From IMG/VR virus record IMGVR_UViG_3300005805_000001, positions 1 to 64,000 of that record: a stretch of 64,000 nucleotides of DNA; one strand, given 5' to 3'. The notes under the pieces were generated by a model, which did no database searches, had not been told where the DNA came from, and saw only the letters and a program-made list of their open reading frames with translations. Position numbers and translations under genes: made by a program. Position 1 is the stretch's first letter. The number at the start of each line of letters is the position of its first letter. The DNA comes from a virus. Taxonomy: Duplodnaviria; Caudoviricetes. Positions 11,632 through 42,918 of the stretch are shown in pieces.

Positions 11632-14600
11632 ATGAAACAATTCATAAAGGATTTAGGTGGTGCAGTAAACAAGGACCTGGGATTCAGTAAAGTCAAACAG
11701 AATGTGGTTTATGATTCACAGAATTTCAGGATTACTCCCAATGATGACGGTACTTTTGTTGTACGTACAAACATACGTGGCAATGAAAACATACTTACCA
11801 TTCCTGACGCACCCACCGAATGGCAGATAAAATTCAATGATTCCTTGAAATTTATTGCAGGTAACAAGTATCGTCTAATTTTACAAGGACAGAATTTCGC
11901 AACAGGTGTAACAGGTAGTTACACTTTTGACTTTGATTATGTAACTGAAACGATATTCTATCAGGAACTTGTAGGAGGTAACGGGTATTCACCGGGAGGA
12001 TTGAACGGGCAAGCCTTGCTTCCAACTTCTTTTCTTTACGGTTCAATAAGCGCCGTTTCCCCTACGTTTGATTATCTTGTAATATCCGGTAACTTTACTT
12101 CCCTTACGATATTATCCGTAACACAACTCTTTCCAGCCGTTACTTATGGTGAACTTGTGATTAACGGTAATTTTTCAACAAATCCACTGGGAACCTGGAC
12201 ATATATACTTCCATGGACATGGGATAACATAAACAATAAAATGGATGCGGTAAATGCAAATGGTGAAACTTTGCAACAGGTTTTCACTACGCTTGCATAT
12301 GGACAGTTATATACCGTTGAGTTTGATGTGACTATTACATCAGGAGACATGCTTGTACTTCTGGGTTATCCGGACCCTAACCAGACAAGTACTCCCCTTA
12401 TAACAGCCACTGGATCATATTCATATGACTTAAGTACCTTGTCATTGGTTCAGACATTGACGTTTTTTCCAGGTAACAATTTTACCGGAAGTATAGACAA
12501 TGTAAGTATCAAGGCAAAGGAATTCACAGGATTCATTGACCTTACACTTGTAAAACCGGCACAACAAAACCTCAGGATAATAGGTTGGACTACTTTGCGG
12601 GATGACATAATCCTCATAACAACCAATGGTGCGTTTAATCCCGATGATCCTGCAACAGGACCTTTTACATCATATGGCCAGATCTGGAGACTCACATATG
12701 ACAAGGGTGGAAACCTTGTTTCCCCTTCGAATTACAATTTGACATTGCTTTACAATGATGAATTGAACCTCACGGTTTACAGACCGATTGCCAATCCCGG
12801 TATGATTGAGACAAGGTATGAAAACCCGAGTATGACTCCAATATACTGGACTGACAATTACAACACCCCTAGAAGAGCAAACCTTGCAGATCCGGAACTT
12901 ATCACATTGACACCCGAAGCACTTGCATTGCTTCCATCCTTGTCATTGGACATACCCATATTGACAAAAATGTTGGATGGCGGTAATTTAAGAACGGGGA
13001 CCTACCAGATAGCCTACAGGTTAAAAACCCCTGGAGGAACAGAAACAAGATTCAGTCGTTTCAGTAAAATGATTCCCATCATAGATGCTCCTGAAACAAG
13101 CAGTCTTTTAAGTTATTATCCGATAGCTGTATATGATCCCCTTACAGGAATCACAAGTTCAACTCCAAGCGCACCTGGACAAGAGACAGGGGCAAATGCA
13201 AACAAGTCAATAGAAATAAGCATATCCAACCTTGATACGAATTACACTACGATAGAAATAGTTACGCTTTATTACAATACACCTGAATCAATACCTGAAT
13301 GTCACATAGTAAAAACAGATGCAATACCACCTTCAGGTACATACATATCGGTAATAGATTCAAGTGACAATGACATTCCAATTACAATTGACGAACTTAC
13401 CGCATTTAGCGCTTCAATTGTAAGATGTAAAACATTGGCGACCAAGGCTCAGACATTGTTCCTTGGCAATCTGAAAACCACTGATTTGGATTTTGAGTTT
13501 GATACCCGTACATACAGGTTTCCGATAAACTCCACCACGACAAAAATAAAAAGTACTACAAACGTCGAGTATACCATCAGGGATACGGATTACAAGATAA
13601 CACAGGTAGGACCTAATCCTGTTGTTCCTTTTGACGTACCTGAGGATTTCGACTGTATACAGGATTATGATTCACAGGCACCTGATTCGTTTTATAACAA
13701 CCTTTATCTTCCGAATTCCGAGATCCTTGGTGGGGAAGGTCCGAATATAAAATATGTCTTTATAACCGAGAACATGCTTTTGGATTCAAAGGTAATGACT
13801 CAAAATGTTGGAAGAGGGGCTAAAAACGTCGACAGATATACCACAACAATCACAGGTGTCAATGGTGTCACCTTTGAAAACGTAAATTCCTTTCAAAACA
13901 ACTCGTCACCTTTCCTTTATGATACAATTGTAGGATACAGAAGGGATGAGATGGAAAGGATAGGCATAGTCTTCTTTGACCAGTTTGACAATCCTTCCTA
14001 TGTATCCTGGATAGGCGACATAAGGTTTCCACACCAGTTCATGGTAGATCCTGTTACGAATGAAAGAACAACCTTGTGTTCTGCTTCACATCAGGCAAAG
14101 GTTACACCTAATTACGTATATTCCACTCCTGAAGGTCCCATACTTTTCAAATCCACTGTTGCAACCTGTGAAAGAAAAGATCCTGCAAGTACTGAATTTA
14201 ACCTGATAGGCAACATAATGGGGTTGCGTATAACAATAAAAAACTTTACCGGCATACCTTCTTTCTTTAAAAAATGCGGCATAGTCAGGGTTCCCAAGAA
14301 GGAAACTGACAGGCGTATAATAGCCCAGGGATTTGTCAGGCCTACATATAAAAATTATGGTGGAGACAGTGGGGATGAAAACTGGTTGTTTACAAACAAC
14401 ATTGACATTGGAGGAATATCACCTTGTTCATTAAACTATGAAGACAAAGGATGGTTTTGGCCCGATGTATTCAGTTTTGTAAGTCCTGAATTCCTGTTTA
14501 ATGTTTCAGATCCAAATGTCCGTCCAATTGATAAACTTGACATTGTAGGCACATACCGTAAAACAGCCTTAAAGGATAATGGATACCTATGGTCTTGGAT

Positions 14601-16833
14601 CGTGCCTAATGACGGAGGTACTTGGAATGGAACCAAGGAAGATGATAATGGAGAGGACAATTACTGGGGTTTCCTTACAAAGAACTATTACATAGAAGAC
14701 AGGGCTTTTACTCCCGGGCCTGTTAAAATGTCAAACAGTGATAACCCTTATATAATTAGAAACACTTTTAATATTCCTAACAAAGTTACACAAGGTATAG
14801 CTTTTCCAAACAGTAACCTTGAAGATGCTTATGGCGTAGGTGTGGTTTCACCTATTCCTCCTTCTACCAATCCCAGAACAATATATAACTGCAGTATAAA
14901 ATATCCCAATGCCAATGATTGGATAAGTACGAATGCTAACTGCGGTGGCCTTAATCCAAGTGGTGGGCGTGCGGCAGGTGATTTCCATTCTCACGGTAAT
15001 AACATGGTATTACTCCAATTGGGCCCTTCTGATGTTACTAATTTTAATTCATCTGCATTTGGTGGACACAATTACATGCTTAATGTCGATAAGCTTCACC
15101 AGCATTATGAATTTGGTAATGCCGGTATAGGTATTCCGGATGCAAGAGGTCTCAATGGATACATGGCAAACTATGTACGTAATGTCCAAAACCAATACGG
15201 CGGTAATTCCTTTTCAGACAGGGCTTCTTCGGAATATGTATCAACAAACTGCATAATAGACATAAGTGACAGGACCAATCCCATAACCACAAAGGTTCTC
15301 GGAGGTGATACTACCGTTGAAGTCATGGATTATAAACCCCATTTGCTTGACCAGTCAATGGCAAAAAGGGTTCGTGATGAGGTAAGTGGAGGTGACAATG
15401 AATCAAACCTGACTGTGTGGTTTTTGTTTTTTCCGTGTGAAACGTCCGTAGCCATTGACTATCGTAGAACCTGGCAAAACGTAGTATACAATGATTGGCG
15501 TAACACTAATACAAATAGAAGTGAACTAAAAGGCGCCTTTAATTATAATAGCGATCGATGGTACGATTCAGGACAAGGGGGATATAGACCCTACATGACC
15601 GAGTTTTCAGAACTCTTCAATGTAAGTCCGGTATTCAATTACTATCCTGAAAAGAAGTTTGTAAAGTATTTTCCAAGACCTTACAAGGGATTGGAACAAA
15701 ACATTTTTGATTGCCGTGTATGGAAGTCTGAAAAAAAGATAGATGGTGCGCTAGTTGATGCATGGAGTATATTCAGGTCTGCGGCAATACTTGATGTTGA
15801 AAGCAAATATGGTCCGATCAATAACCTTGTGGTTTTTCAAAACAAGATGTTATATTTTCAAGACAAGGCTTTTGGACAACTTCAGATCAATGAGCAAAAA
15901 CTGATAAACTCGGTAGGGGATACCACTGATCTTGTACTGGGGTCATCCGGTATTCTTGAAAGGTATGATTACATATCGACCCAGACAGGAACAAAGCATC
16001 AGTTCAGTATGAGTATATCCGACTATAGTCTTATATGGTTTGATACCCTTGCACGTAAGATCTATAAGTTTGGAGACGGTCTTAAACCTGTAACTGATTT
16101 AAAAGGATATCATGCCCTTTTGTATAACGGTACTGAAGGTAAGTTACAAAACAATGACAATCCTTATTTATACAAGGGAGTCCATTCAACCTATGATTAC
16201 AGGTTCAATGAATTTTACATGACTTTCCTTTCGGAGGAAAACCAGTTTACACTTGTATATAATGACATGGTTGACGGGTTTGTGGGAGAGTATACCCATT
16301 ATCCGGTAGTCTACATCAATGACAAGTCAAATATATTTTCCGTACCTTACAGTGGAGGTGCCAGTGAGATATACATCCACAACTATGGTAATTACGGCCA
16401 GTTCTATGGAGTAGTGAATCCTTCAAAACTCAGCTTTGTAGTGAATCCTGAACAAGGGTTGGAAAAGGTGTTTACCAACATGGAGGTTACCGCTGAATCA
16501 TTTAAGACCGTTTTTGGTTATGATCAACCTGACTTCAATGATTTCTTTGATACCATGCGTGTGTATGACAATTATCAGAACACGGATTTCATATCCACAA
16601 GCCTGATAGCCAAGAAACACAAGACTATATGGGACGTGAAGATTCCTTCGGACAGGGTGCTTGATGTGACCCAACCCATATTCAATGCCGCAAACCTCAG
16701 TTCCGTACGTCCCGCACTTACGCGCAGGATGAAAGACAAATGGTTCATGGTGGATTTCATTTACAATAATACCGATAATAACAAATTCGTGGTGCACTTT
16801 GCTAATGCACTTTACATGATAAACTCACGATAA
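11632..16833 (+). CDS. Muzzle / tail stabilization protein (P22 gp10-like, crAss001 gp44-like)
   Basis: 1733 aa with IYWTDNYNTPRR, YRRDEMERIGIVFFD.F...S.V.WIGDIRFP, the C-terminal D..SKYGPINNL...QDKAFG.L.INE and YDY.FNEFYMTF, at the canonical position. Confidence 0.8.
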   Translation: MKQFIKDLGGAVNKDLGFSKVKQNVVYDSQNFRITPNDDGTFVVRTNIRGNENILTIPDAPTEWQIKFNDSLKFIAGNKYRLILQGQNFATGVTGSYTFDFDYVTETIFYQELVGGNGYSPGGLNGQALLPTSFLYGSISAVSPTFDYLVISGNFTSLTILSVTQLFPAVTYGELVINGNFSTNPLGTWTYILPWTWDNINNKMDAVNANGETLQQVFTTLAYGQLYTVEFDVTITSGDMLVLLGYPDPNQTSTPLITATGSYSYDLSTLSLVQTLTFFPGNNFTGSIDNVSIKAKEFTGFIDLTLVKPAQQNLRIIGWTTLRDDIILITTNGAFNPDDPATGPFTSYGQIWRLTYDKGGNLVSPSNYNLTLLYNDELNLTVYRPIANPGMIETRYENPSMTPIYWTDNYNTPRRANLADPELITLTPEALALLPSLSLDIPILTKMLDGGNLRTGTYQIAYRLKTPGGTETRFSRFSKMIPIIDAPETSSLLSYYPIAVYDPLTGITSSTPSAPGQETGANANKSIEISISNLDTNYTTIEIVTLYYNTPESIPECHIVKTDAIPPSGTYISVIDSSDNDIPITIDELTAFSASIVRCKTLATKAQTLFLGNLKTTDLDFEFDTRTYRFPINSTTTKIKSTTNVEYTIRDTDYKITQVGPNPVVPFDVPEDFDCIQDYDSQAPDSFYNNLYLPNSEILGGEGPNIKYVFITENMLLDSKVMTQNVGRGAKNVDRYTTTITGVNGVTFENVNSFQNNSSPFLYDTIVGYRRDEMERIGIVFFDQFDNPSYVSWIGDIRFPHQFMVDPVTNERTTLCSASHQAKVTPNYVYSTPEGPILFKSTVATCERKDPASTEFNLIGNIMGLRITIKNFTGIPSFFKKCGIVRVPKKETDRRIIAQGFVRPTYKNYGGDSGDENWLFTNNIDIGGISPCSLNYEDKGWFWPDVFSFVSPEFLFNVSDPNVRPIDKLDIVGTYRKTALKDNGYLWSWIVPNDGGTWNGTKEDDNGEDNYWGFLTKNYYIEDRAFTPGPVKMSNSDNPYIIRNTFNIPNKVTQGIAFPNSNLEDAYGVGVVSPIPPSTNPRTIYNCSIKYPNANDWISTNANCGGLNPSGGRAAGDFHSHGNNMVLLQLGPSDVTNFNSSAFGGHNYMLNVDKLHQHYEFGNAGIGIPDARGLNGYMANYVRNVQNQYGGNSFSDRASSEYVSTNCIIDISDRTNPITTKVLGGDTTVEVMDYKPHLLDQSMAKRVRDEVSGGDNESNLTVWFLFFPCETSVAIDYRRTWQNVVYNDWRNTNTNRSELKGAFNYNSDRWYDSGQGGYRPYMTEFSELFNVSPVFNYYPEKKFVKYFPRPYKGLEQNIFDCRVWKSEKKIDGALVDAWSIFRSAAILDVESKYGPINNLVVFQNKMLYFQDKAFGQLQINEQKLINSVGDTTDLVLGSSGILERYDYISTQTGTKHQFSMSISDYSLIWFDTLARKIYKFGDGLKPVTDLKGYHALLYNGTEGKLQNNDNPYLYKGVHSTYDYRFNEFYMTFLSEENQFTLVYNDMVDGFVGEYTHYPVVYINDKSNIFSVPYSGGASEIYIHNYGNYGQFYGVVNPSKLSFVVNPEQGLEKVFTNMEVTAESFKTVFGYDQPDFNDFFDTMRVYDNYQNTDFISTSLIAKKHKTIWDVKIPSDRVLDVTQPIFNAANLSSVRPALTRRMKDKWFMVDFIYNNTDNNKFVVHFANALYMINSR

Positions 16834-19800
16834 TGAATAATTGGCTTGACAATTATGACGATAAGGAAATGGCTAAAAAAGCCCGCAAGATTTCCAAAGG
16901 AACAAGAATACCACGTGTACCAAAGTCAAGGCTTGAAACGGAAGACAGGTTGGGATTTCCCGTAGATGAAAGTGACTTGCCTGTTCCAGGGGTTCCTGTA
17001 AACTTTGACATACTTATGAACATGCATAAGTTCAAGGTTCCGAATCCTGATTATTATGAACAACAACCAATGATGATTGCCGCTGATGGAGGTCCTATAG
17101 GTCCAGAGGAAGAACAAAAGCCTGGTGTAGCAAGGGTCATGGGTGTTGATAAGGAAGGAACCCCTGTATTACGTCCTACCACAGGATACTATCTTCCTGA
17201 GGTGGAAATATTCGCGGACGCGCCTGATACCTATAACAACTATATCAGAAACAAGTATAAGGACGCAGGTCTTGGCGTAACCATGTTTGGAATGCCTTTG
17301 GACTACGCTTTTGGATTTCCCCAGGCGGCGATGACCAAGGCGTTTACAGGCAAGTACCAGCTTCCTTCAGAAGCCATGGGTATTGAGAATCCTGTAGTAG
17401 CGTTATTGACGGATGCAGCACTTGATCCTGTGAATATTACAGGCGCTGGTTTATTGACCAAGGAAAAAGCATTGGCTGCTCTAACCTCTAGTAAGGAATC
17501 AGGAATGCTTTCCAATGCTTATAAATATAATCCTTGGGCGTTTAAACCTAATCCTGAAGCTGGCTATAGAATGATTGGTGGAAAAGAAGGTTATTTAGAT
17601 GCTATAGTTTCTGGAGAAATAAGACCTACAGGTAGATATGAACATGCTCATTTTAATATTGGACAACCTTTAAATCCAAATAGACTTTCACCAGAGGAAT
17701 TAATTCAAGCTGGTAGTCCTGGTGGGTATAAGGGTCCTTATATGGCTGAAATGAAAGAGGGAACATGGCAAAGAATGTCAGATGCTTTTCCCAATAATCC
17801 AGAAATGCAAGAACAGTTTAGGTTACTAGGAAAAGACAAAGATGTTTGGCAACACCCATTACTTGGACATATAAAAGTGGATGATCCAAGACTAAAACTT
17901 TATAAACAAGATTGGTTAAGAGGATACAAGGAAGTTCCTAAAAAAGAAGTTGGTGGTTATGTGACTGATGAATATAAAAAGGTACGCAGTACCGTACCAC
18001 GTGTATCATACACTGAACCTTCAAACATGTACACCGGACCAACTACCCAAAGAGGAATAACCTTTGCCGAAGGGGGAGAAGTTGAAAGACCTACAGGTAC
18101 ATATGTTGAATCAATGTGTGGACCTGATCATGTGGAAATAAAAGATGAAAAAGGTGTTCCTGTAGAATGTATAAGTCCTGAAGAGTATGAACGCAGGCTT
18201 AAACCATTCAATGATGCCGCGCAAGCCAGATTGGAAGAAGCCAGAAAGAACGATCCTAATCCAAGCGGTAATCCAAAAGTGTCATGGAATCCAGCCATTG
18301 ACGGACCTTATCCTAGGATAAAAAGATACAATGAACCTTTGGAATCCAACTTTTCAAGTTATTGTCCTGATTGTTCTGCAGCTGAAAAAAAGGCAATGAG
18401 GCAGTATGAGAGATCCCAAAGGCGTTTACAAACAAACCAAGGCCGTAACATGAGGAGAGCTGAAAGGCAAAACTTTTTTGACAACATCGGTAATATAAAC
18501 CTGCGGATCCCGCCTCTTGGTATTGGCGCCTTTTTTCAAAACCTTTGGGATGCATGTCGTCCAGGTGAACGCTGTTTTAAATTTGAAGACGGAGGTCCTA
18601 CAAATCCTCCTGACAAGACATGGGAATTAAACCCAAATACTTATGATACTCCCAACAGGATAACCTTTCCTTTGATAGGCGGGATTGATTGGAGTACAAA
18701 AGGTTCACAAGGAGCCGGAGGTGACCGTGCAATGGTATTAGGGTATGAAAGGGAAGGATTTGGTTCCAATCTTTCCCCCTTTGTTGACTTGAATGCCGGA
18801 ATTGCCTCAGCACCTTCTTCTTATAAATATACTACATATGATTCTGGAGTGGGACAATCCCAGGCAGAGTTACCCGCTGGTGCGGGAGTGTTTGGCAAGG
18901 TAGGATTCAAACCTTCTTTTTCAGTGGGGCAATCATGGATACACCCTAAGACCGGAAAGGACAAGTACAAATCATCATTCTTTATAGAACCTAGCGTATA
19001 TGCTGATATAAACGCCGGAAAAATCCTGCCTAAGGAACAGTCAGAATATTCAAGTGTCATGAATCCTGCGGAAAACCCCAGCATGACAATGCTTGAACGT
19101 AATGACAAGTTACTTGACAAACCATGGTATGCCACGGTAAATCCCGGTGCAAGTCTTGATTTTTCAAAGACAGGTAGGGTGGGATATATGGATTCAAAGG
19201 GAAGTCTTGGACTCACTTATGACCAATACGGTCCTGGGGTAAAGGCTTCTGTAATCGGTGAAAACTTTGAAGGATCTCTTCCTTATGGTGTAAAGTTCCA
19301 TGCGGGATATCAACCAGGTGACAAAGGAAGAGGTTTTTATGGAGGAACTGAAATCCTGATTCCAATCGGCGAAAGTTGGAACAAAGTAAGAAGGAAAAAA
19401 CAAACTCCTACACCTCTTCCAGGGACAGTATCTACTCCACGTTTTGAAGATGGGGGACCTATTAAACCATTTGTAACATCTAATCTTAGTGAATATAACA
19501 AACGTAAAGCAGCATATGCTGATAGTTTAGATTTATATAATAGGTTTAAGAACAGTAAAGCTGATTACTATAATTTTATAAAAAGTCAAGGATTTGACCC
19601 TAGTCGTATAGAGGAATGGACTACAGATGGATATGTAAACACAGATGTGCATCCTAAAATAGGTGCGACTTCATATGGTATATTGACAAATAGTGGTGGA
19701 GGATATAATAGAGATGCTGCAGGTAATCCAATAAATTATACAACATATCCAACAATATCAAGTACTGGTATTCGTAGTTCTAGAAATGTACCTGATAATA

Positions 19801-20897
19801 GTGAACTTAATAAAAAAATAAGAAAATCGGCAGGGGCATCTTCATTTGGTTATGCTGTTTATGAAAAACCAGTACAAGAGGTAATATTAAGTAGACCTGA
19901 TATGAAACCCATGACTCCCATAGGGTTTTCCCAATATGAACCTCAACTTCAACAATGGAAAGGACCTATACCACAAATGGTTTCAGGTATTGACGAAACC
20001 ATTATGATGCCTAGCGGCGTTGAAATATCCAAGAAGCAGTTCATAAAACAGTATGGAGAACCTGCATGGAATAGAGCCACTAATAAAAAAGCAGATGGGG
20101 GACCTACGGGTCCTGGAGATCCTACTCCTAAACCAAAACCCGAACCTACATCGTGGTTGGATTATATCAATCCAATGAACTGGGGAGTATCAAACCTTGA
20201 TGATGCAGGTACTTTTGAACAAGCGTTTGCAAAGGCTGATAAGGAAAACATGGATGAGTTCATGTGGTATGGTACAAGATATCCTGTTGTATATGCTGAA
20301 ACTCCTAATAAACAAGAAATGTCTTACCAAAAAGAGTATCCAATGACCTATGCACTTGCATCAGGTCTGCAAAAACTTGACAGGTACAAGGAATATAAGC
20401 CTGAAGAATTTATGGACATGCTTGGAATGATACGCCAGGTTGAAAGCAGGGATGCAAACATTGCACAATCAGGTGGAGGACCCGGACGGGGATATTACCA
20501 GTTTGAACCTACTTCAGCCAAGACAGCATATAAAAGGGCAAAAACACTTGCAAGCGAGTTAAAAGACCTTACCGGAGTAGAAGTAAAACTTCCCAAGAAA
20601 TTTGATGAGAATTTCATGAATCTTGACAAGGATACCCAAAGTTTTTATACATTGAGTAATCTTGTAAAAGCGGCTACTGCAAGAAGGGAAGTTGATCCTA
20701 ACTACAAGTTCAATCCCCGTGAAGCGGGAAATGCATGGTTTGATTTGCATTGGGCTGGAGAAAGTTCACATCCCGAAGATGTTCCTGTAAGGATAAAGCA
20801 CTGGAACACCACGCATCCCAAGAACCTTATCAACAGGGTAGCCAAAAACAAAAAGAAGGATGGGGGAACAATAGATGATTTCATCAACAACCTTTAA
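16833..20897 (+). CDS. Modular virion cargo/ejection protein with GG-delimited modules and a C-terminal lysozyme-like domain
   Basis: Seven x-x-(D/E/V)-G-G motifs. The C-terminal module has RQVESR...GPGRGYYQFEP (lysozyme/transglycosylase-like). It follows the muzzle gene. Confidence 0.65.
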   Translation: MNNWLDNYDDKEMAKKARKISKGTRIPRVPKSRLETEDRLGFPVDESDLPVPGVPVNFDILMNMHKFKVPNPDYYEQQPMMIAADGGPIGPEEEQKPGVARVMGVDKEGTPVLRPTTGYYLPEVEIFADAPDTYNNYIRNKYKDAGLGVTMFGMPLDYAFGFPQAAMTKAFTGKYQLPSEAMGIENPVVALLTDAALDPVNITGAGLLTKEKALAALTSSKESGMLSNAYKYNPWAFKPNPEAGYRMIGGKEGYLDAIVSGEIRPTGRYEHAHFNIGQPLNPNRLSPEELIQAGSPGGYKGPYMAEMKEGTWQRMSDAFPNNPEMQEQFRLLGKDKDVWQHPLLGHIKVDDPRLKLYKQDWLRGYKEVPKKEVGGYVTDEYKKVRSTVPRVSYTEPSNMYTGPTTQRGITFAEGGEVERPTGTYVESMCGPDHVEIKDEKGVPVECISPEEYERRLKPFNDAAQARLEEARKNDPNPSGNPKVSWNPAIDGPYPRIKRYNEPLESNFSSYCPDCSAAEKKAMRQYERSQRRLQTNQGRNMRRAERQNFFDNIGNINLRIPPLGIGAFFQNLWDACRPGERCFKFEDGGPTNPPDKTWELNPNTYDTPNRITFPLIGGIDWSTKGSQGAGGDRAMVLGYEREGFGSNLSPFVDLNAGIASAPSSYKYTTYDSGVGQSQAELPAGAGVFGKVGFKPSFSVGQSWIHPKTGKDKYKSSFFIEPSVYADINAGKILPKEQSEYSSVMNPAENPSMTMLERNDKLLDKPWYATVNPGASLDFSKTGRVGYMDSKGSLGLTYDQYGPGVKASVIGENFEGSLPYGVKFHAGYQPGDKGRGFYGGTEILIPIGESWNKVRRKKQTPTPLPGTVSTPRFEDGGPIKPFVTSNLSEYNKRKAAYADSLDLYNRFKNSKADYYNFIKSQGFDPSRIEEWTTDGYVNTDVHPKIGATSYGILTNSGGGYNRDAAGNPINYTTYPTISSTGIRSSRNVPDNSELNKKIRKSAGASSFGYAVYEKPVQEVILSRPDMKPMTPIGFSQYEPQLQQWKGPIPQMVSGIDETIMMPSGVEISKKQFIKQYGEPAWNRATNKKADGGPTGPGDPTPKPKPEPTSWLDYINPMNWGVSNLDDAGTFEQAFAKADKENMDEFMWYGTRYPVVYAETPNKQEMSYQKEYPMTYALASGLQKLDRYKEYKPEEFMDMLGMIRQVESRDANIAQSGGGPGRGYYQFEPTSAKTAYKRAKTLASELKDLTGVEVKLPKKFDENFMNLDKDTQSFYTLSNLVKAATARREVDPNYKFNPREAGNAWFDLHWAGESSHPEDVPVRIKHWNTTHPKNLINRVAKNKKKDGGTIDDFINNL

Positions 20898-20924
20898 TCA
20901 TAAAACATAACAATACAACATACA

Positions 20925-23900
20925 ATGACTAAAAAAGAAATTTTGAAGATGACCGGACTTTCAGAGTCTGACTTCTATAAGAAATACCCTACACAGGAAT
21001 CCTTCATGATGGAATATGGCGGAAAGATTGCAGGATATGAATCTGGAGGCAAGGTAAGTTACTCGGCTAAGGATGCCGCAGCAGGTAAGGATATTGGAAA
21101 ACCCGGTAAGAACTTCAGCAAGATAGCCGCTGAAGCGGGTGAAAGATATGGATCTAAGGAAGCAGGACAAAGAGTCGCTGGTGCAATACTTGCCAAGCTT
21201 CGTGGTAAACGCAAAGATGGTGGTAAAATAACACCTGATGAATTTGTAAAAAAATATTACGGTGAAAAATATCAAAGCGATAAGGATCCTAAAACAGGTG
21301 AAGATTTAAAAGGTTATGATTATTGGAGGAACCGTATACTTTCAGAAGTTGATTTGCCTTTAAATGAAGATGGTGATATTATGTTTGAATCTGTTTCAGA
21401 CATATTGAAAAGAATGGAATCGGCCAATCCACAAGGTAAAGGGTTTTTACAGGTTCCAATAAACCAAACCGTTGTTAAAGAATTAATGGAGGAACAAAGT
21501 GATCTGTATGATACACCGGAAAATGTAAACTATAACCTTGTCAAGGAGAATGTAAAACTGAATGCAGTTAAAAACCCTGCCAATCCGGTACGTCCTTTTG
21601 GTTGGGGATACGACGAGGGTTCTATGGATGGCGGATATAAAAAAGGTGGAAGCATTACTCCCACTCCGACAGGAGATATATTCGACATGATGGGCATGTC
21701 TTATCTTAATGCTTATGGGAACGGATCATATACAAGAGGCAACAATCCGACTCCTTATCTTTCATTGACATCTACACAAATGCCTTATAGTCAATCTTTT
21801 GTAGAAGGTCTTCCTCTTGGAAGTGACGTATCAAACCTGACAACTGGAAGATACGGCATACAAGGCGGTATGCCATTAGGCGCAGGAAAAGGTGTTTACC
21901 TTACAGGTGAGGCTGGCGTTGAAAGAGGATTGTCCCGTGACGTAGCTACAAAGACTGTCAATCCTTATGGACAGGTAAGTAATTTTTCAATGACTCCTTG
22001 GGAAGAGACAAACAAACCTTATGGATCATTGGGCCTTAATTTTCAAAATCCTGAGAAGCAATATTACAAAGGACTTACAGGAAATCAAAGTAGTGCAGGA
22101 TTTGGAGTATCATATGGTAATGATATGATATCACCTTATGCTGATGTCAACCCACGACTTGCAGTAAACTTTGGTAGTCCTAGAAGAGGTAACCAACCAT
22201 TGACTGCTGCTGTAGGGGTTGATGCAAGATTACGTCCTTTTTATGAAAAGAAGTATGAAGAGAATTCCTGGAATGAAGCAAACAGTGGTGCAAGTTATGC
22301 CACACCGTATTTAGGCGCAAGTGGAAGACTTGGAGGTGGACTTGAGGTTGGTGCAAAAGGTGGGTATAACCTGATGACTGACAAACCCCAATATGGTATC
22401 TCGGTTACTAAGAAATTTCAGCAAGGTGGAGACATAGATGTCAAAGCGCCTTTGTATGATGAGACTGAACTTAATACTAACATTAACACAAACCTTTATG
22501 CATCAGGTAGTTACACACCAATGTATGCTGGAGGTAGTTATATTCCAATGTATGGTTTTGGTAACTGGGTTAAAGATGTAGGTAAACTTACATTAAATAA
22601 CCTTGCAGCTCCTTTGGAACATGTTTCTGGAAACAACTTTGTAAACTTTGATTATGACAATAAAGCCATGGCGGATGCCGCTGCAGTCAGTGAAGGATTG
22701 AGTGGCGCAGCTACGGATATAGTAGGTACTACTTTTTTAGGACCTGCATATGGAATGGCAAAAGGACAAGTTCAAGGTGTTACCAGAAATCTAGGAAGTA
22801 GTTCTGAAGAACAAAAAGGTGCAAGTAAGGCAGCAAATCAAATTGGACAGATTGCAGGAAGTACCGGAGATCTTATTTCAGGGATTTCTTCAGGTAATGT
22901 TCAACAGATTGTAGGAGGAGCTGGTAATGTTTTAGGCACAACAGGGCAACAACTTGGTTCTCAAGAACTTGGAGCTGTTGGACAGTTAACAGGTACAGCT
23001 TCCCAGTTTGTAGGTAGTGGAAAATCAACACCTTCTACAACAGGAATGGGGCCAATGGGAGACATGGTTTCTCCACAAAATGCTATGGGATTCTTTGCAA
23101 AAAATGGAGGTAATGTACCTGCATATATGCAAAATATGCGTAAATTCGCGCAAGGCGGTATGACCGTGGGTAACGTAGAAGGTAAGGAACTTTTGATTGA
23201 TCCTTACAAACTTGAAGCAGGAGGAGTACCCAAAATACTTGCGGATTATACGAATATTCCCCGACATCCTTCCGACGGTTCAATTGATGAACGTGGAACT
23301 GTCCCATTGCCTGTAAATAAATATGTTATTACCAATGCAATGCGTGAAAAATTTAAGAAATCTAAACAATCAAATGATGGATTATGGTCTTCAGCAATCA
23401 TGAATAAAATTGATTTTGACAAGAATAAAAAGGAACAGCAGGAAATGCAAAAGGCATCCAATGCTTATGGAAGGTTCATGGCAAAATACGGAGGCACCAT
23501 TGAAAAAATGTATGCCTGTGGTGGCAAGACTTATGGATGTGGAGGCATGACAAAATATGATGATGGAGGAGGAACTCCGTCATATCCATTGAACATGACA
23601 GGTCCAAGGGATATCCTTCCACTTATGTTTACAGATCCATATGTAGTTCCGGTAAATAACAACATCGGACTTACTTCTTCTATGATCGGCAGTTCATTGC
23701 CCCAAGGAGGATTGCAGTTATCCTTACCTTCATCAGGTGCTCCTGCCCTTCCAGCTGATTGGAACAGTGGAATGCGTTCAGGCGTATTAACCGAACCACG
23801 TTTAAACACTCCGGCAATGGGAAGTTCATTACCTCAGGGTTGGCAGTTACAAAACCCTTCTGCAGATGACGGTTGGAAATTGGATGCCAATCTTTCTCCT

Positions 23901-24614
23901 GCACGTGTTGATTTATTTGATGGACCTATGACCCTTATGGAACCTTTAGGACCTACAGGTAGCCAAGCACCAAGAGGACCTGTTGGAGACAGTGCTCGAA
24001 AAACCGAAATGGTATCAAGAAGGGATCCCAGTGATTATCTTGGACAACAATATGGAATGAACCCCAGTGTGCTTGGACAGATAGCCCCAATGCTTCCGGC
24101 CCTTGGATTGGGTTTGGAAGCCGCATTGTCAAAACCTTATCAGGTAAAGGCAAGTGACTACATGGTAAATGAGCGTTTAAAACCTGAAAAGATCAGTCCT
24201 AATTACCGTCCGATATATGAAGCTGAAAACCGGGCTGCTTATGACATTGCACAAATGGCTCCAGGTTCAGGAGGATATCTTGCAGGGCGCACTGCCTTGA
24301 ATGCAAATACAAAAAAGGTAATAGCTGATTATAAAAAAGCGTTGGAAGATGAATATGTAAAACAAAAACTTGGTGCTGACCAGTTTAACATTACCAAGGA
24401 TTTGCAGAATGCGCAAACCAAGTTGGCCGTTGATCAGTTCAACGAACAAAACAGGGCGGCACGTCGTAACGCAATGCGTGAACAGTTTGGTAAGAATCTT
24501 CCTGCAGCGTTCTTTAACCAGCAATACAACAACATGGGAATGCAGGCAATTCAAGCCCAATATCCTAACCAGCAATTCAACTGGGGTATCTTTGGAAAGT
24601 CAAAACCTGTTTAA
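20925..24614 (+). CDS. Virion cargo/ejection protein (crAss001 gp45-like) with repeated xxxGG motifs
   Basis: At least ten YxxGG/FxxGG/KxGG motifs, a Gly/Ala-rich membrane-like segment, a VEGKELL motif and a helical C-terminus. Confidence 0.65.
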   Translation: MTKKEILKMTGLSESDFYKKYPTQESFMMEYGGKIAGYESGGKVSYSAKDAAAGKDIGKPGKNFSKIAAEAGERYGSKEAGQRVAGAILAKLRGKRKDGGKITPDEFVKKYYGEKYQSDKDPKTGEDLKGYDYWRNRILSEVDLPLNEDGDIMFESVSDILKRMESANPQGKGFLQVPINQTVVKELMEEQSDLYDTPENVNYNLVKENVKLNAVKNPANPVRPFGWGYDEGSMDGGYKKGGSITPTPTGDIFDMMGMSYLNAYGNGSYTRGNNPTPYLSLTSTQMPYSQSFVEGLPLGSDVSNLTTGRYGIQGGMPLGAGKGVYLTGEAGVERGLSRDVATKTVNPYGQVSNFSMTPWEETNKPYGSLGLNFQNPEKQYYKGLTGNQSSAGFGVSYGNDMISPYADVNPRLAVNFGSPRRGNQPLTAAVGVDARLRPFYEKKYEENSWNEANSGASYATPYLGASGRLGGGLEVGAKGGYNLMTDKPQYGISVTKKFQQGGDIDVKAPLYDETELNTNINTNLYASGSYTPMYAGGSYIPMYGFGNWVKDVGKLTLNNLAAPLEHVSGNNFVNFDYDNKAMADAAAVSEGLSGAATDIVGTTFLGPAYGMAKGQVQGVTRNLGSSSEEQKGASKAANQIGQIAGSTGDLISGISSGNVQQIVGGAGNVLGTTGQQLGSQELGAVGQLTGTASQFVGSGKSTPSTTGMGPMGDMVSPQNAMGFFAKNGGNVPAYMQNMRKFAQGGMTVGNVEGKELLIDPYKLEAGGVPKILADYTNIPRHPSDGSIDERGTVPLPVNKYVITNAMREKFKKSKQSNDGLWSSAIMNKIDFDKNKKEQQEMQKASNAYGRFMAKYGGTIEKMYACGGKTYGCGGMTKYDDGGGTPSYPLNMTGPRDILPLMFTDPYVVPVNNNIGLTSSMIGSSLPQGGLQLSLPSSGAPALPADWNSGMRSGVLTEPRLNTPAMGSSLPQGWQLQNPSADDGWKLDANLSPARVDLFDGPMTLMEPLGPTGSQAPRGPVGDSARKTEMVSRRDPSDYLGQQYGMNPSVLGQIAPMLPALGLGLEAALSKPYQVKASDYMVNERLKPEKISPNYRPIYEAENRAAYDIAQMAPGSGGYLAGRTALNANTKKVIADYKKALEDEYVKQKLGADQFNITKDLQNAQTKLAVDQFNEQNRAARRNAMREQFGKNLPAAFFNQQYNNMGMQAIQAQYPNQQFNWGIFGKSKPV

Positions 24615-24633
24615 TACGATAAAGACATAACAC

Positions 24634-26727
24634 ATGGCATATTCTATTTGGGACAAACAACCTGAACTGGCATTACCGAAACTGCCTTTTGAACTGGTAC
24701 TCTCGCTTGCCGAGATGACCCGTAAGAAACAGGAGGAAGCCGATACAACCGTAGACAAGATCAATGAATCCATGTTAAGCATTCCCGCCATCCCAGTGGA
24801 TGTGCCGGGAAGGGACAAAAGGATAACTGAACTTCAACAACAGATATACGACATCAGTGACATGTATTCCAATAACATGGCTCAGGCATTACCTGCCTTG
24901 AAGTCATTACAAAGGGAACTTAACAAGGAAATGAGTATCGGATATCTAAGTGGAGTAAAAAAACGTCATACAGACATGGTCAAGAGTTTTGAAAACCTTG
25001 ACCTGATGCAGAACGAATATATCAAAACAGGAGGCAAGCAAGGCATGTCTCCTGAGGACGTACAGGCTGTAAAAACCCGTGAACTTACCGATCCGAATTA
25101 CAATGGTGCTCCAATACAACGCACTCCAAGTGGAGCATGGCAGTCTTATAACCAATATGAAAGGTTAAACACCTATAACTATTCTGACAAGGCAAATGAA
25201 CTTGGCAAATGGCTAGGGGAACATCCTGAGAAAGTAACTCAACTTACAGGACTTTCATATTCTTCAAAAACAGGTTATTATGAACATGGTGATGTAACCA
25301 GGACGGTAATGACAGCTGAGGCCATTCAAAGGGCTTTGAAAACCTACTTTAGGAATGACCCCGAAGTTACAAAGTATGTTGACTGGCAGGCAGGAGTTTC
25401 AGGTAAACATGATGCTGCACGCAAATTACTTGCAGAAGGAGCGCAAAAAGGTTATATCCCTTCCTATGATGCGGCAGGTAACGAGATATCGGCTTATAAT
25501 CCCGATACATGGATTAATCAGGTTTATACCCCTAGCTTGTATACAAAAGCTGATCAAGCCGCTGATGCGGTTGCCGCAGTATATCAAAGGAATGAGATTG
25601 ACAGGAACAGGTCTTATGTATGGAATCAACTTGCAGAAGAAGGACGAAAGAGGGAAGAACAAATGGGTTATGCAATAGTAGGCCAGGCGCCTATGACTGC
25701 AGTTCCCGGAACTACTTTGGATCCTTCCATATTTGATCCTAATGCAGGTGTGAAAACAGGCAAATATTTGTTTACCAGTAATCCTAGGACAGGAGAAGCC
25801 AGGTATCTTGATCCACAAGGAAACACAATTACAAGGGAACAGTATGACAAGGCAATGGCTGCTCAAAAGGGAAATGTATCTTATATTGATTTAAAGGATC
25901 TTTCAGCGGCACAACAACAAAAAGTTTCATCGTATCTGCGTACCTTGTCAAAGAGTACTGACATGGGTGAAGCGGCAAAACGGATTATGGATGGAAAAGG
26001 TACGGATGCTGATAAGAAACTTGTATATCCTGCCTTGAAAAAAATGTCAGAGGCAGCCGTAGGAACCAATCAAATGAATTCCACGTTTACAACCATAAAC
26101 GATAAACTTGAAATACCTTTGGTAAACCAGATGTTAAGCGGACGTACTGATGAAGTCATATCCGTACAACAACTGGGCGCAGGACTTGCAGGTGACATGA
26201 AGGTGCGTTTACCTGATGGTCAATCCGTACCCTATAAGGATTTTGTCACTTACATAAAGAATAATGCCAAACCTGAATCACTTGTTTCAATCCCGGCCAA
26301 ACTTCGTGGTGTAAATGCATTAACCAATGCTACAGGAGACTTGTCGTTTGGAAATGCCTATCAAATGGTAATTGAAGGTGTTCCTTATTATCTGCATGGT
26401 GATTACCAGTTTACCACTGATAGTCCCAAAGGCAAGGCCAAGCAGGCTGAAAAAGTCACAAATGAATATACGGCAATGTTCGGTCAGGCACAAGCCACTC
26501 CTAGAGGTACTTCTACCGGTAATTATTTTGGAATACCCGTTGAATGGGTATACATGCCTGATGCAGGTGATCCAAACAAAGGGACATATAACCTTACAGG
26601 ATTTGGAACGGATGCACAGGGTAACATCATGCCTGTGACACCCGGGGTGGGAACCCAGTATTCTTCTGCTGAAGAAATGGAAAGGGTTTTAAGAATACAG
26701 TTAAGTAACACATTAAACGGTAAATAA
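24634..26727 (+). CDS. Virion cargo protein of the RNA polymerase gene block
   Basis: 697 aa with a coiled-coil N-terminus (LPKLPFELV...), directly upstream of the giant RNAP gene as in crAss-like phages. Confidence 0.6.
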   Translation: MAYSIWDKQPELALPKLPFELVLSLAEMTRKKQEEADTTVDKINESMLSIPAIPVDVPGRDKRITELQQQIYDISDMYSNNMAQALPALKSLQRELNKEMSIGYLSGVKKRHTDMVKSFENLDLMQNEYIKTGGKQGMSPEDVQAVKTRELTDPNYNGAPIQRTPSGAWQSYNQYERLNTYNYSDKANELGKWLGEHPEKVTQLTGLSYSSKTGYYEHGDVTRTVMTAEAIQRALKTYFRNDPEVTKYVDWQAGVSGKHDAARKLLAEGAQKGYIPSYDAAGNEISAYNPDTWINQVYTPSLYTKADQAADAVAAVYQRNEIDRNRSYVWNQLAEEGRKREEQMGYAIVGQAPMTAVPGTTLDPSIFDPNAGVKTGKYLFTSNPRTGEARYLDPQGNTITREQYDKAMAAQKGNVSYIDLKDLSAAQQQKVSSYLRTLSKSTDMGEAAKRIMDGKGTDADKKLVYPALKKMSEAAVGTNQMNSTFTTINDKLEIPLVNQMLSGRTDEVISVQQLGAGLAGDMKVRLPDGQSVPYKDFVTYIKNNAKPESLVSIPAKLRGVNALTNATGDLSFGNAYQMVIEGVPYYLHGDYQFTTDSPKGKAKQAEKVTNEYTAMFGQAQATPRGTSTGNYFGIPVEWVYMPDAGDPNKGTYNLTGFGTDAQGNIMPVTPGVGTQYSSAEEMERVLRIQLSNTLNGK

Positions 26728-26731
26728 AGAA

Positions 26732-42600: not shown

Positions 42601-42874
42601 TTTCATGTTCTTTACTCCTGTAAATCCCATGGAGTGGATGCGTGTACTTAGGAGCCCAACCGTATCAATGACTTACATTGAAAAACTTTCCAGGTTCTTT
42701 ACACAATTGATATTCAATCCATTTGAACAATATGAACGTAAGACATCAGGTTATCAAAAAGGTGATTACAAACTGGAAAAAAGGTTTGATGACGTACTGC
42801 CTATCTATAACCAGATAATGAATGCGATGTATCCTGAAGACCAATTGTCGGTATACAAGAAAACCGGTGGTTAA
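39626..42874 (+). CDS. Large ejected virion protein, last gene of the RNAP block
   Basis: 1082 aa, helical, with a conserved-looking C-terminal region (HGVYN..D...LQRRWYGKLALLFRKW...GFQRRW) and a hydrophobic helix near the end. Confidence 0.65.
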   Translation: MALNCPNKSWPAYKEMEAKHGEDAAYDAFRFNGYKMFNSVQEAELLIAKKKAFDLKYVSDIKKRVIEVLQFQISRYQGRPSAASREYVQNITSIIEEIKSNNDLVGIMRLLELSSEKSNAVFQRITEIQQQYPNGFDNLTQEEVARVAETMQEIRVFMSTYDIIDEIETVFPDNSPVMQTLSNLRMNRKNIIRRYKDMHEEVLASWLASQVERVNKNLSSDDQKQYFITKTRIKELLNSAVADINVVEKMLGTQANSKDPLTGLIAARIKEESFAVRQENVDVTDTLLGLYKATGGSNNPDEFNKQYMRRAQNFEFVHKMENGQYVYDKDGKAVGEWKYVPRLAIITEFNEDQYAKELKEFKASLPPGAEEAAIQRRMKMIRDWRKANTQLRQDPSRLIEQRRKNLTPLEFDRWFAENTVRIEIKHYSNGSTNMDYHDPATIHSTSKDGKSFVIYRDISEFYRPADKYRNKDFARLMATDPYFRELHNAYQVANQRVHPLKRLKYGIIPQKRKKGYDKYITGNGETVWTNIRDDFNHATNVETYDTVYGLQSPDGKDLNNIPIYFTDLLDERELSTDLLESVLDYYQMANNFNSMSKIEPFIEMVYDAIKGNEIVDIKPRNVQTLTAKGDVKKDRSTKRPIMSRTQNVNEALIEFLDKVVYGEYEIQSIMQVGEREISKNKIAANVMKMTSLNGLAFNINSFFNNSLIGNFTMLIESVGGKNFNLKNFISAESVFFKELPSVMNDVAKGHPTSKLGKLVIRYDAIQGEFEDNMGNNISGNALKRTFSTDALFFLTKGAEYQIQATGLIAMMKNQKVKTKGGAEISLWDAYDQNGNLRSDVLWSKEQQFQFTQRLHAVNKSMHGVYNNFDSPTLQRRWYGKLALLFRKWIYSGFQRRWSSEFHNMENGDVEQGYYNLFFRKLLTDIKQGRLDILLGSGLSPRQREARAKALSEVLVMTAAWLLYAGLKGDDDDEPNSWLQDQVILQSRRLAGDFMFFTPVNPMEWMRVLRSPTVSMTYIEKLSRFFTQLIFNPFEQYERKTSGYQKGDYKLEKRFDDVLPIYNQIMNAMYPEDQLSVYKKTGG

Positions 42875-42880
42875 TGGTTT

Positions 42881-42918
42881 GAAAAAGGGGGGAATCAAAT
42901 CCCCCCTTTCTTTTTTTG
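42881..42918. terminator. Bidirectional Rho-independent terminator at the convergence of the two arms
   Basis: AAAGGGGGGA-ATCAAA-TCCCCCCTTT hairpin with an A-tract on the left and a T-tract on the right, between convergent genes. Confidence 0.85.

What the first reader, a model, noticed from the sequence alone, without database searches (positions are those of the whole stretch)
16833..24614. Two virion cargo proteins built as cassette arrays of unrelated modules delimited by a recurring xxx-GG motif
Seen in the first protein: AADGG (GG at 17088), EVGG (17952), FAEGG (18072), FEDGG (18591), FEDGG (19452), KADGG (20097), KKDGG (20862), four of them followed by P(T/I)xP. Seen in the second: EYGG (21018), YESGG (21045), RKDGG (21219), YKKGG (21645), FQQGG (22425), YAGG (22530), KNGG (23106), FAQGG (23154), KYGG (23490), and YACGG/YGCGG/YDDGG (~23513-23570). 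The segments between motifs are unrelated to each other and differ in base composition; some look like complete domains (beta-barrel, lysozyme, possible ART). Known: crAss-like phages pack cargo proteins encoded between the muzzle and RNAP genes and eject them into the host. Inferred: the motif is a packaging or processing signal and a recombination joint, making these genes a plug-and-play payload system that delivers a shuffled set of effectors at infection. This is my best candidate for an undescribed system here.
Basis: partly seen in the sequence, partly recalled or inferred. Interest (0 to 1): 0.88.

Follow-up and report, generated by a model that had tools for sequence, protein, structure and literature searches.

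The report
Gly-Gly seam tags in crassvirus cargo
Two large proteins that this freshwater crAss-like phage most likely packs and injects are strings of unrelated modules, each ending in one short conserved Gly-Gly peptide; wild populations of the same phage have swapped whole modules at these seams, but what the peptide does (docking tag or cutting site) is not shown.

Summary
Every motif is at the stated coordinate. The GG dipeptide alone is not enriched, but the extended peptide is: K/aromatic-x-[D/E/N/Q/K]-G-G, often followed by P-T/I-x-P or W-L-D-K-Y.

Homology breakpoints fall on it.

New here: contigs from four independent studies, 98-99% identical to the window, break at 19472 and resume at 20109. 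Module M6 is therefore replaced, and the alien cassette ends in its own KKADGG. A second swap ends at 21663 with its own FKQGG. These two cassettes are the compositional outliers (GC 0.35 against 0.42).

Pfam domains in relatives (ART-PolyVal, SLT, SET, GH24) all lie between motifs. The seams are predicted disordered.

The same tag occurs in crAss001 gp45, where the cryo-EM model runs uncut across one seam. It also forms the exact C-terminus of this phage's gp49-like RNA polymerase subunit.

No protease gene was recognised. Conservation is at peptide level, not DNA level.

Best reading: a cargo tag and seam that is probably not cut. A protease site remains possible. This scan found the motif before in at least 15 other crAss-like genomes; I found no published description.

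The parts
11632..16833 (+). Muzzle protein gene. It fixes the context: the cargo genes follow it.
   Evidence: PF25731 crAss_MUZ E 3e-133 and PF25729.
16833..20897 (+). Cargo protein 'C1-like' P0001, 1354 aa. It has seven modules, each ending in a GG tag. The N-terminal cap is WLDNY (aa 4-8) and the C-terminal cap is TIDDFINNL.
16833..17093 (+). Module M1 (aa 1-87), ending in AADGG. It lies at an internal position in homolog P0023.
   Evidence: query 11-225 matches subject 1001-1240.
17094..17957 (+). Module M2 (aa 88-375), the most widespread module, ending in DWLRGYKEVPKKEVGG. Its fold is unknown. It has a variable core between conserved flanks.
   Evidence: About 30 homologs carry it at N-terminal, central or C-terminal positions. 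Alignment A2. No PDB or Atlas hit.
17958..18077 (+). Mini-module M3 (aa 376-415), bounded by GG on both sides and ending in FAEGG.
   Evidence: It occurs twice in P0006 and at the N-terminus of P0038-40.
18078..18596 (+). Module M4 (aa 416-588), rich in cysteine, ending in FEDGG.
   Evidence: P0025 matches query 418-588 only.
18597..19457 (+). Module M5 (aa 589-875), rich in Gly, Ser and Tyr and probably beta-rich, ending in FEDGG.
   Evidence: P0030 and P0031 match query 580/583-877. The fold was not determined.
19458..20102 (+). Module M6 (aa 876-1090), a low-GC cassette ending in KADGG. Wild near-identical phages carry another cassette in its place.
   Evidence: GC 0.347, GC3 0.177, 0.8th percentile. 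Loose ends at 19472 and 20109 have the same consensus in four runs of four studies. 81% identical to the copy in P0003.
20103..20867 (+). Module M7 (aa 1091-1345): a Pro/Thr linker followed by a lysozyme-like (lytic transglycosylase-like) domain, ending in KKDGG.
   Evidence: In the AF2 model the core 1124-1336 has pLDDT up to 92 and both seams are below 50. VIA-align hits: phi6 lysin Z 6.5, phiKZ gp144, Slt70, MltE, T7 gp16.
20925..24614 (+). Cargo protein P0002, 1229 aa. It has a conserved backbone plus optional cassettes and about 12 aromatic-x-x-GG tags. It is remotely related to crAss001 gp45.
   Evidence: hhalign of the family against gp45 residues 302-430: probability 82%, E 1e-5.
21225..21650 (+). 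Optional cassette C2_a (aa 101-242), low GC, ending in YKKGG.
   Evidence: Absent from P0044, P0045 and P0047. GC 0.354. A wild variant joins TTFKQGGITP to 21663.
21651..22430 (+). Optional cassette C2_b (aa 243-502), rich in Gly and Tyr, ending in FQQGG.
   Evidence: P0043 is 95-98% identical elsewhere but lacks aa 268-490 and joins at its own FANGG.
23100..23597 (+). The most conserved block of P0002 (aa 726-891), with invariant GG pairs: KNGG, FAQGG, EAGG, KYGG, YGCGG.
   Evidence: Invariant columns of alignment A1. 28 representative clusters share the block. No member matches PF25725.
24634..26727 (+). Third cargo-position ORF (697 aa). Its only GG sits in the context EYIKTGG (aa 133-134).
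   Evidence: No family hit.
39626..42874 (+). gp49-like virion RNA polymerase subunit (1082 aa). It ends exactly in VYKKTGG followed by the stop codon.
   Evidence: 28% identity, E 3e-53, to a crAss001-type RNA polymerase subunit. C-terminus. The crAss001-type homolog ends in FFKQ.

Best explanation
P0001 and P0002 are virion cargo (ejection) proteins of a freshwater crAss-like phage. They are of the 'polyvalent protein' kind: strings of autonomous, unrelated modules.

Shown:
- Each cassette carries at its C-terminal end a short conserved peptide: K/aromatic, K/A/E/Q, D/N/E/K, G, G. It is commonly followed by P-T/I-x-P or by W-L-D-K-Y.
- In the one module modelled, the peptide lies in linker that is predicted to be disordered.
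- Modules have been gained, lost, moved and replaced at these seams. This is seen between distant relatives and, very recently, within wild populations of this same phage.
- The peptide is conserved as protein, not as DNA.

Inferred:
- The peptide is a short linear tag that stays in the chain. It marks or docks cargo inside the particle, for loading or for binding to the portal and tail-barrel interior, and it gives the string its flexible joints for threading through the tail.
- Because it sits in linkers, recombinants that break there keep every module intact. Selection therefore leaves breakpoints at the seams. The few shared bases of the tag may also help crossovers.
For: Position and identity:
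- Muzzle gene upstream; RNA polymerase subunits downstream.
- Complete 87.3 kb crassvirus genome with MCP, portal, TerL and ring proteins.

Seams equal breakpoints:
- 68 of 116 HSP ends at the seven motifs against 12.4 expected.
- 35% of 3197 internal HSP ends in 53 proteins lie within 5 aa of a GG, against 11.5% for random positions.
- Module order is reversed in P0003.
- P0043 (95-98% identical) lacks aa 268-490; P0044 and P0045 lack aa 105-237.
- L004 and L005 (muzzle 69% identical) differ by insertions and a transposition, all at GG.

Recent exchange:
- Four runs from four studies give contigs 98-99% identical up to 19472 and from about 20400 onward.
- Between those points is an alien cassette that ends EGKKADGG. 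A second swap ends TTFKQGG.
- Those two cassettes are the GC outliers.

Tag rather than plain hinge:
- The GG pairs and their aromatic residues are among the invariant columns of a family with 26-58% identity.
- WLDKY-type caps lie within the last 15 aa of 19 of 62 proteins and within the first 15 aa of 8 of 62, against about 1 expected.
- The gp49-like subunit ends exactly in YKKTGG, and the only GG of C3 is in YIKTGG.
- 64 GGs in 14,061 aa of non-cargo proteins mostly lack the motif context.

Probably uncut:
- crAss001 gp45 carries the tag. Its cryo-EM model, residues 425-552, runs through AFGG-WLNTQ-GG. Both resolved segments lie between tags (PMC10172136).
- No protease family was found in the head module or the window ORFs.

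Other:
- Seams are disordered in the AF2 model.
- Pfam domains of relatives lie wholly between tags.
Against: - No experiment shows these proteins in a virion or shows the state of the seams.
- The single uncut seam in gp45 (AFGG) is not of the canonical form, which has an aromatic residue at -3.
- Order-independent modules, and a natural C-terminus that ends exactly in GG, fit a polyprotein cut after GG equally well.
- Failure to recognise a protease is weak evidence, because most ORFs of this phage match no family.
- No binding partner for the tag has been identified.
- P0001 and P0002 do not match the portal-binding domain PF25725.
- Some breakpoints lie away from GG: inside M2, and at 18440-18474 and about 20400.
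Confidence: 0.5

Rival explanations
1. The tag is a protease cleavage code. The cargo genes would encode polyproteins, built like polyubiquitin or double-glycine leader substrates, that are cut after GG by an unrecognised phage or host protease. This would release free modules (lysozyme and other effectors) in the particle or in the host.
For: - The information lies mostly on the N-terminal side of GG, as in LxGG-type sites.
- Module order is free.
- Short terminal caps resemble leader and tail peptides.
- One cargo protein ends exactly in GG.
- The seams are disordered and accessible.
Against: - No protease family was found in the genome parts scanned.
- The gp45 model is continuous across GG 427-428 and 434-435 (PMC10172136).
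- Bayfield et al. interpret gp45 as one chain spanning tail and capsid.
- Stand-alone proteins capped at both ends (P0051, P0053, P0058) would need no cutting.
Confidence: 0.22
2. The motif has no partner. It would be only the sequence signature of flexible Gly-containing linkers, and breakpoints fall there because any linker tolerates recombination.
For: - The GG dipeptide is not enriched over composition.
- The seams are predicted disordered.
- P/T-rich stretches follow many tags.
Against: - Specific residues at -4 to -1 are enriched 2- to 4-fold.
- The GG pairs and their aromatic residues are invariant across a family with 26-58% identity.
- The tag occurs at the extreme termini, where a hinge has no use.
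- It is shared with gut crAss001 gp45 and marine phi14:2.
Confidence: 0.15
3. Conservation is driven at the DNA level. The tag-coding sequence would be a recombination signal, either microhomology or a site for a recombinase, that promotes cassette exchange.
For: - Short direct repeats coincide with DGGP seams: D3 at 17085, 18588 and 20094; D17 at 19448 and 20093.
- The left crossover of the wild replacement lies 15 nt after FEDGG. The alien cassette shares AAAGC-GATGG-GGAC with the window at the right seam.
- GGG GGA is used at 4 of 7 seams, although GGG is 10% of Gly codons.
Against: - Codons at seams vary within and between genomes.
- The repeats are only 14-20 nt at about 80% identity, which is what the peptide plus codon bias would give.
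- The right crossover of the wild replacement lies inside M7, at about 20400, not at the seam.
Confidence: 0.05
4. The tags are epitopes for host envelope machinery, working like the Tol or Ton boxes of colicin translocation domains. They would let periplasmic host proteins ratchet the unfolded cargo string inward.
For: The only support is resemblance, recalled from my own knowledge. Colicin translocation domains are disordered and Gly-rich and carry short D-G-x-G-W type boxes. Here D-G-G-W-L is common.
Against: The tag also occurs in proteins expected to stay cytoplasmic after injection, such as the RNA polymerase subunit.
Confidence: 0.04

Closest known systems
Cargo proteins C1 (gp45) and C2 (gp46) of Bacteroides phage crAss001 (Bayfield et al. 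2023, PMC10172136; PDB 7QOG, 7QOI, 7QOJ, 7QOL, 8CKB; Pfam PF25725, PF25712)
   Same: - Same gene position, between the muzzle and virion RNA polymerase genes.
- gp45 carries the same aromatic-x-x-GG tags, including GGWL.
- Its two cryo-EM-resolved segments lie between tags.
- The N-terminal modules of the P0002 family align to gp45 residues 302-430 (probability 82%).
   Different: - There is no match to the portal-binding CARG1 domain or to CARGO2.
- The proteins here are much longer and carry extra cassettes, among them a lysozyme-like one.
- The paper does not mention the motif or any module exchange.
Polyvalent proteins of phages and conjugative elements (Iyer, Burroughs, Anand, de Souza, Aravind 2017, PMC5512222)
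   Same: - Many unrelated domains in one virion-delivered polypeptide.
- Lysozyme, SLT and ART-PolyVal domains occur in relatives.
- Extensive mosaicism.
   Different: - A search of that paper for 'linker' gave no occurrence, and the passages returned (terms: processed, autoproteoly-, cleav-, crAss, Bacteroidetes) describe no conserved junction peptide.
- Its proposed processing relies on MPTase domains, which were not found here.
- crAss-like phages are not treated there.
Ejection / internal core proteins of podoviruses (T7 gp14-16, P22 gp7/16/20, N4-like ejection proteins)
   Same: - Packed in the head, ejected before the DNA and threaded unfolded.
- T7 gp16 carries a lytic transglycosylase domain; M7 resembles that fold weakly (6yt5_G, Z 3.6).
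   Different: - Those proteins have fixed architectures.
- No repeated seam tag and no cassette exchange is known to me for them.
Polymorphic toxins with a conserved demarcation motif before swappable cassettes (CdiA VENN, Rhs PxxxxDPxGL); recalled from my own knowledge, not tested here
   Same: A short conserved peptide marks where variable cassettes are exchanged between otherwise similar genes.
   Different: - Those systems have one C-terminal toxin cassette with an immunity gene, and they are secreted by bacteria.
- Here many cassettes sit in series, inside a phage particle, with no immunity genes seen.

Membership tests
Crassvirus cargo protein 1 (gp45-like) | Gene lies between the muzzle gene and the virion RNA polymerase genes of a crassvirus | tested here: met
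   Muzzle PF25731 upstream. The giant ORF and the 1082-aa ORF downstream match crass RNA polymerase subunits. Crass_capsid and ring proteins are present.
Crassvirus cargo protein 1 (gp45-like) | Portal-binding domain crAss_CARG1 (PF25725) | tested here: not met
   No hit for P0001 or P0002 at E<=0.1. None of 29 family members hit at E<=0.01. gp45 and phi14:2 gp081 do hit.
Crassvirus cargo protein 1 (gp45-like) | Profile-level similarity to gp45 outside CARG1 | tested here: inconclusive
   hhalign of A4 against gp45: probability 82%, E 1e-5, over gp45 residues 302-430. The shallower alignment A1 gave nothing.
Crassvirus cargo protein 1 (gp45-like) | Present in virions and ejected | not testable with these tools
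   The phage is uncultured. There are only DNA contigs from lake, sediment and aquaculture metagenomes.
Polyvalent proteins (Iyer et al. 2017) | Several unrelated domains in one polypeptide of a phage, in a virion or late-gene context | tested here: met
   The modules are mutually unrelated, recur independently in relatives, and lie in the structural gene block.
Polyvalent proteins (Iyer et al. 2017) | Hallmark effector or processing domains (ART-PolyVal, MPTase, MuF, lysozyme) | tested here: inconclusive
   ART-PolyVal, SLT, SET, GH24 and PG_binding domains are found in homologs only. In the window, only M7 has a lysozyme-like fold, at Z 6.5. No MPTase was seen.
Protease-processed polyprotein (GG-type sites) | A cognate protease encoded by the phage | tested here: inconclusive
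   No protease family by Pfam or PHROGs in 30 ORFs, including the head module. Most ORFs have no family at all.
Protease-processed polyprotein (GG-type sites) | Mature products that begin and end at the sites | not testable with these tools
   The only indirect evidence is that the gp45 model 425-552 is continuous over two GGs (PMC10172136).
Lytic transglycosylase / lysozyme-like domain (module M7) | Lysozyme-like fold with a catalytic Glu | tested here: inconclusive
   AF2 core pLDDT 60-92. Top VIA-align rows are almost all lysozyme-like or LT folds, but with Z<=6.5. Foldseek E>0.01. An E-S pair at QVESRD is seen in the sequence. No Pfam hit.

The most novel reading that the evidence does not exclude
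The K/aromatic-x-x-G-G peptide is a true cargo code of Crassvirales. It would be either a loading/ejection signal sufficient to put any protein into the particle, or the cleavage code of an unrecognised protease that turns these genes into polyubiquitin-like polyproteins releasing free effectors. In both cases natural populations reshuffle the payload at the code.
Probability: 0.3. Interest if true: 0.85.

Novelty: new variant of a known kind. Interest (0 to 1): 0.62.

Why it matters
Crassviruses are among the most abundant phages in the human gut and in waters. How they load, order and eject several megadaltons of protein is an open question (Bayfield et al. 2023).

A conserved tag shared by all cargo proteins, from gut crAss001 to this lake phage, gives a concrete and mutable handle on that question. 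It could also be a way to load foreign proteins into such particles.

The population data show that the injected payload is a fast-evolving, cassette-swapping locus. That is the behaviour expected of host-range or counter-defence determinants.

Tried and rejected
- GG dipeptide enrichment: not significant.
- tblastn of both proteins against 50,697 phage records: no match.
- PDB sequence searches with the proteins and with profiles A2 and A3: nothing.
- Pfam, PHROGs and NCBIfam on P0001 and P0002: one PHROG of unknown function only.
- ESM Atlas on M5 and M2: no usable lead.
- AF2 of P0002 residues 502-1229 with 12 sequences: pLDDT 38, and the Foldseek rows are meaningless. The idea that aa 741-881 is the CARG1 portal-binding domain is therefore not supported. 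No family member hits PF25725.
- Foldseek of the M7 model against PDB and BFVD: no E<=0.001.
- The look-up of encoding contigs: closed, so the DNA of P0043 and P0003 could not be fetched.
- Exact-pattern scans for the wild variant allele in IMG/VR and JGI metagenomes: no hit.
- Relatives of the 1082-aa subunit in IMG/VR: none confirmed.
- crAss001 SDS-PAGE band assignment for gp45: not in the text or supplements held.
- In the laid runs, 19670-20036 had no cover. I rely on the shared loose ends at 19472 and 20109, not on that gap.
- Small loose ends near 21224-21297 and 17895-17930 come from short contigs at 85% likeness and were not used.

Full report
CONTEXT

The window is the first 64 kb of a complete 87.3 kb genome that closes on a 99-nt terminal overlap. 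It is a crassvirus:
- muzzle protein at 11632-16833 (PF25731, E 3e-133);
- tail ring proteins 1 and 2;
- ring 3/4 and the Crass_capsid MCP (E 2e-127);
- portal and large terminase.

Two ORFs follow the muzzle gene: 16833-20897 (P0001, 1354 aa) and 20925-24614 (P0002, 1229 aa). After them come a 697-aa ORF, a 4296-aa ORF and a 1082-aa ORF. The N-terminus of the 4296-aa ORF weakly matches a crass RNA polymerase subunit. The 1082-aa ORF is 28% identical (E 3e-53) to the crAss001-type RNA polymerase subunit.

This is the order found in crAss001: muzzle gp44, cargo gp45 and gp46, then RNA polymerase subunits. There, gp45 and gp46 were detected in virions and named cargo proteins (PMC10172136). The phage is a freshwater one. 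Runs from nine studies of lake, sediment, aquaculture and freshwater samples hold this stretch or part of it.

THE OBSERVATION

All listed GG positions are correct. GG as such is not more frequent than composition predicts: 16 against 11.7, and 22 against 20. The context is what is special.
- In P0001 six of the seven motifs are [D/E]GG and four continue as P-T/I-x-P.
- In P0002 nine GGs have an aromatic residue or Met at -3, against 2.6 expected. No other ORF of the window shows this enrichment.

Over 578 distinct GG contexts in the homologs, the profile is K at -4, Y/F at -3 (32%, fourfold over background), A/K/E/Q at -2, D/N/M at -1, then G-G, x, T/I/L/V. A frequent longer form is GG-WLDKY-xx-GG.

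BREAKPOINTS

The homologs of P0001 are metagenomic. They match it only in pieces, at 50-87% identity, and in other orders. For example, P0003 has query 870-1092 placed before query 81-588.
Shifted HSPs give 12.4 +/- 3.4. No end lies near the nine other GGs.
- Over 53 proteins, 35% of 3197 internal HSP ends lie within 5 residues of a GG, against 11.5% for random positions.
- P0043 is 95-98% identical to P0002 but lacks aa 268-490 and joins at its own FANGG. P0044, P0045 and P0047 lack aa 105-237.
- Two IMG/VR relatives have muzzle proteins 69% identical to each other. Their C1 genes differ by a 735-aa insertion and a transposed module, with every junction at a GG.
- P0038-40 and P0049 combine C1-type modules with the P0002 backbone, so modules also move between the neighbouring genes.

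Not every breakpoint is at a GG. M2 has a variable core between conserved flanks.

EXCHANGE IN WILD POPULATIONS (new here)

I laid Logan contigs of four runs from four studies on 16000-27000. All four carry this phage at 98-99% identity. All four show the same two loose ends with the same consensus: contigs leave the window after 19472 and re-enter at 20109.

Read in frame, the variant is ...RFEDGGPIKPF | PMAQTGIPTP... on the left and ...EGKKADGGLI | GPGDPTPKP... on the right. Module M6 (aa 881-1092) is therefore replaced by an unrelated cassette that brings its own KKADGG tag.

From 20109 to about 20396 the variant is only about 88% identical, and about 99% again beyond that. The right crossover therefore lies inside the lysozyme-like module.

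In one run a contig joins ...TTFKQGGITP to 21663, which replaces cassette C2_a, again with its own tag.

M6 and C2_a are also the compositional outliers of the locus. Their GC is 0.347 and 0.354 against a genome mean of 0.418, at the 0.8th and 2.7th percentiles of same-size windows.

WHAT THE MODULES ARE

The modules are unrelated to each other.

M7 (aa 1091-1345) folds with a confident core, with pLDDT up to 92. The seam and Pro/Thr linker before it and the KKDGG cap after it are below 50. Its best structural neighbours are nearly all lysozyme-like: phi6 lysin (Z 6.5), phiKZ gp144, Slt70, MltE, MltC and T7 gp16. The scores are modest.

In relatives, every recognised Pfam domain lies wholly between two tags:
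- ART-PolyVal, residues 197-359 of P0028;
- SLT, in P0006 and P0028;
- SET, in P0020;
- PG_binding, in P0029;
- GH24, in L004 and L005.

This places the family among the polyvalent proteins of Iyer et al. 2017. A search of that paper for 'linker' found no occurrence, and the passages returned for the other search terms describe no junction peptide.

M2, M4, M5 and M6 remain without an assigned fold. I could not confirm a beta-barrel or an ART in this window.

RELATION TO gp45

crAss001 gp45 and phi14:2 gp080 and gp081 carry the same tags. In gp45 they bracket the two segments seen by cryo-EM, residues 214-245 and 425-552.

A 29-sequence profile of the P0002 family aligns its N-terminal modules to gp45 residues 302-430 (probability 82%, E 1e-5). 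No family member matches the portal-binding domain PF25725. P0002 is thus a remote relative of C1 in some modules. It is not a demonstrated member of the CARG1 family.

WHAT THE TAG DOES

DNA signal. Codons at the tags vary. The repeats are 14-20 nt at about 80% identity. The conserved element is the peptide.

Plain hinge. This is unlikely, for four reasons:
- The GG pairs and their aromatic residues are among the few invariant columns of the P0002 family.
- WLDKY-type caps sit at the last 15 residues of 19 of 62 proteins and at the first 15 of 8 of 62, against about 1 expected. Some short proteins are capped at both ends.
- The gp49-like RNA polymerase subunit ends exactly in VYKKTGG, where its crAss001-type homolog ends in FFKQ.
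- The only GG of the third cargo-position ORF is in EYIKTGG. The 64 GGs of non-cargo proteins mostly lack the context.

Protease site. This remains possible, given free module order, accessible linkers and a natural end at GG. Against it, no protease family was recognised in 30 ORFs, including the head module. Also, the published gp45 model runs unbroken through AFGG-WLNTQ-GG.

I therefore favour an uncut tag that marks or docks cargo and doubles as a permissive seam (0.5). A cleavage code is second (0.22).

PRIOR KNOWLEDGE

Full-text searches for the motif and for modular crassvirus cargo found no description. This scan has noted the same tag in at least 15 other crAss-like genomes, with the same open question. 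The population-level cassette replacement and its match with the GC outliers are my additions.

TOOLS

Noticed in passing
window 42866-42874: The 1082-aa gp49-like RNA polymerase subunit ends exactly in ...VYKKTGG followed by the stop codon. It also has an internal LYKATGG. The crAss001-type homolog ends in ...FFKQ without the GG.
   Followed up: partly
window 42895-43557 (- strand): A 220-aa ORF convergent with the cargo block ends in ...MQKKKGGI. It may be another small tagged cargo protein.
   Followed up: no
window 18440-18474 and 25715-25933: Wild variants replace 33 nt with 72 other letters inside module M4 (aa 536-548), and they diverge over about 217 nt inside the 697-aa ORF. These are variable patches that are not at GG tags.
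   Followed up: partly
window 17094-17957 (alignment A2): Module M2 has conserved N- and C-terminal flanks (the latter ...DWLRGYKEVPKKEDGG) around a core that differs completely between relatives. It looks like a cassette within a cassette.
   Followed up: partly
window 19452, 20097, 20862, 18072: Four of the seven seam GG pairs in P0001 are coded GGG GGA, although GGG is only 10% of Gly codons in the gene. Relatives L004 and L005 do not show this.
   Followed up: partly
window 26732-39622: A single 4296-aa ORF stands where crAss001 has separate RNA polymerase-associated proteins. Only its N-terminus (aa 53-483) shows weak similarity to a crass RNA polymerase subunit.
   Followed up: partly
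window 62928-63806 (- strand): A 292-aa ORF has a CxxxCxxC motif (CLYNCSYC), which suggests a radical-SAM-type enzyme. It also contains a chance WLDKY.
   Followed up: no
genome 1-99 and 87232-87331: The contig ends overlap by 99 nt, so the 87.3 kb genome is complete and circularly closed. Near-identical phages occur in lake, sediment, aquaculture and other aquatic metagenomes from nine studies, 2016-2025.
   Followed up: partly
window 3679-5214: A 511-aa ORF in the structural block has a collagen-like repeat near its N-terminus (PF01391, E 2e-5). It may be a head or tail fibre.
   Followed up: no
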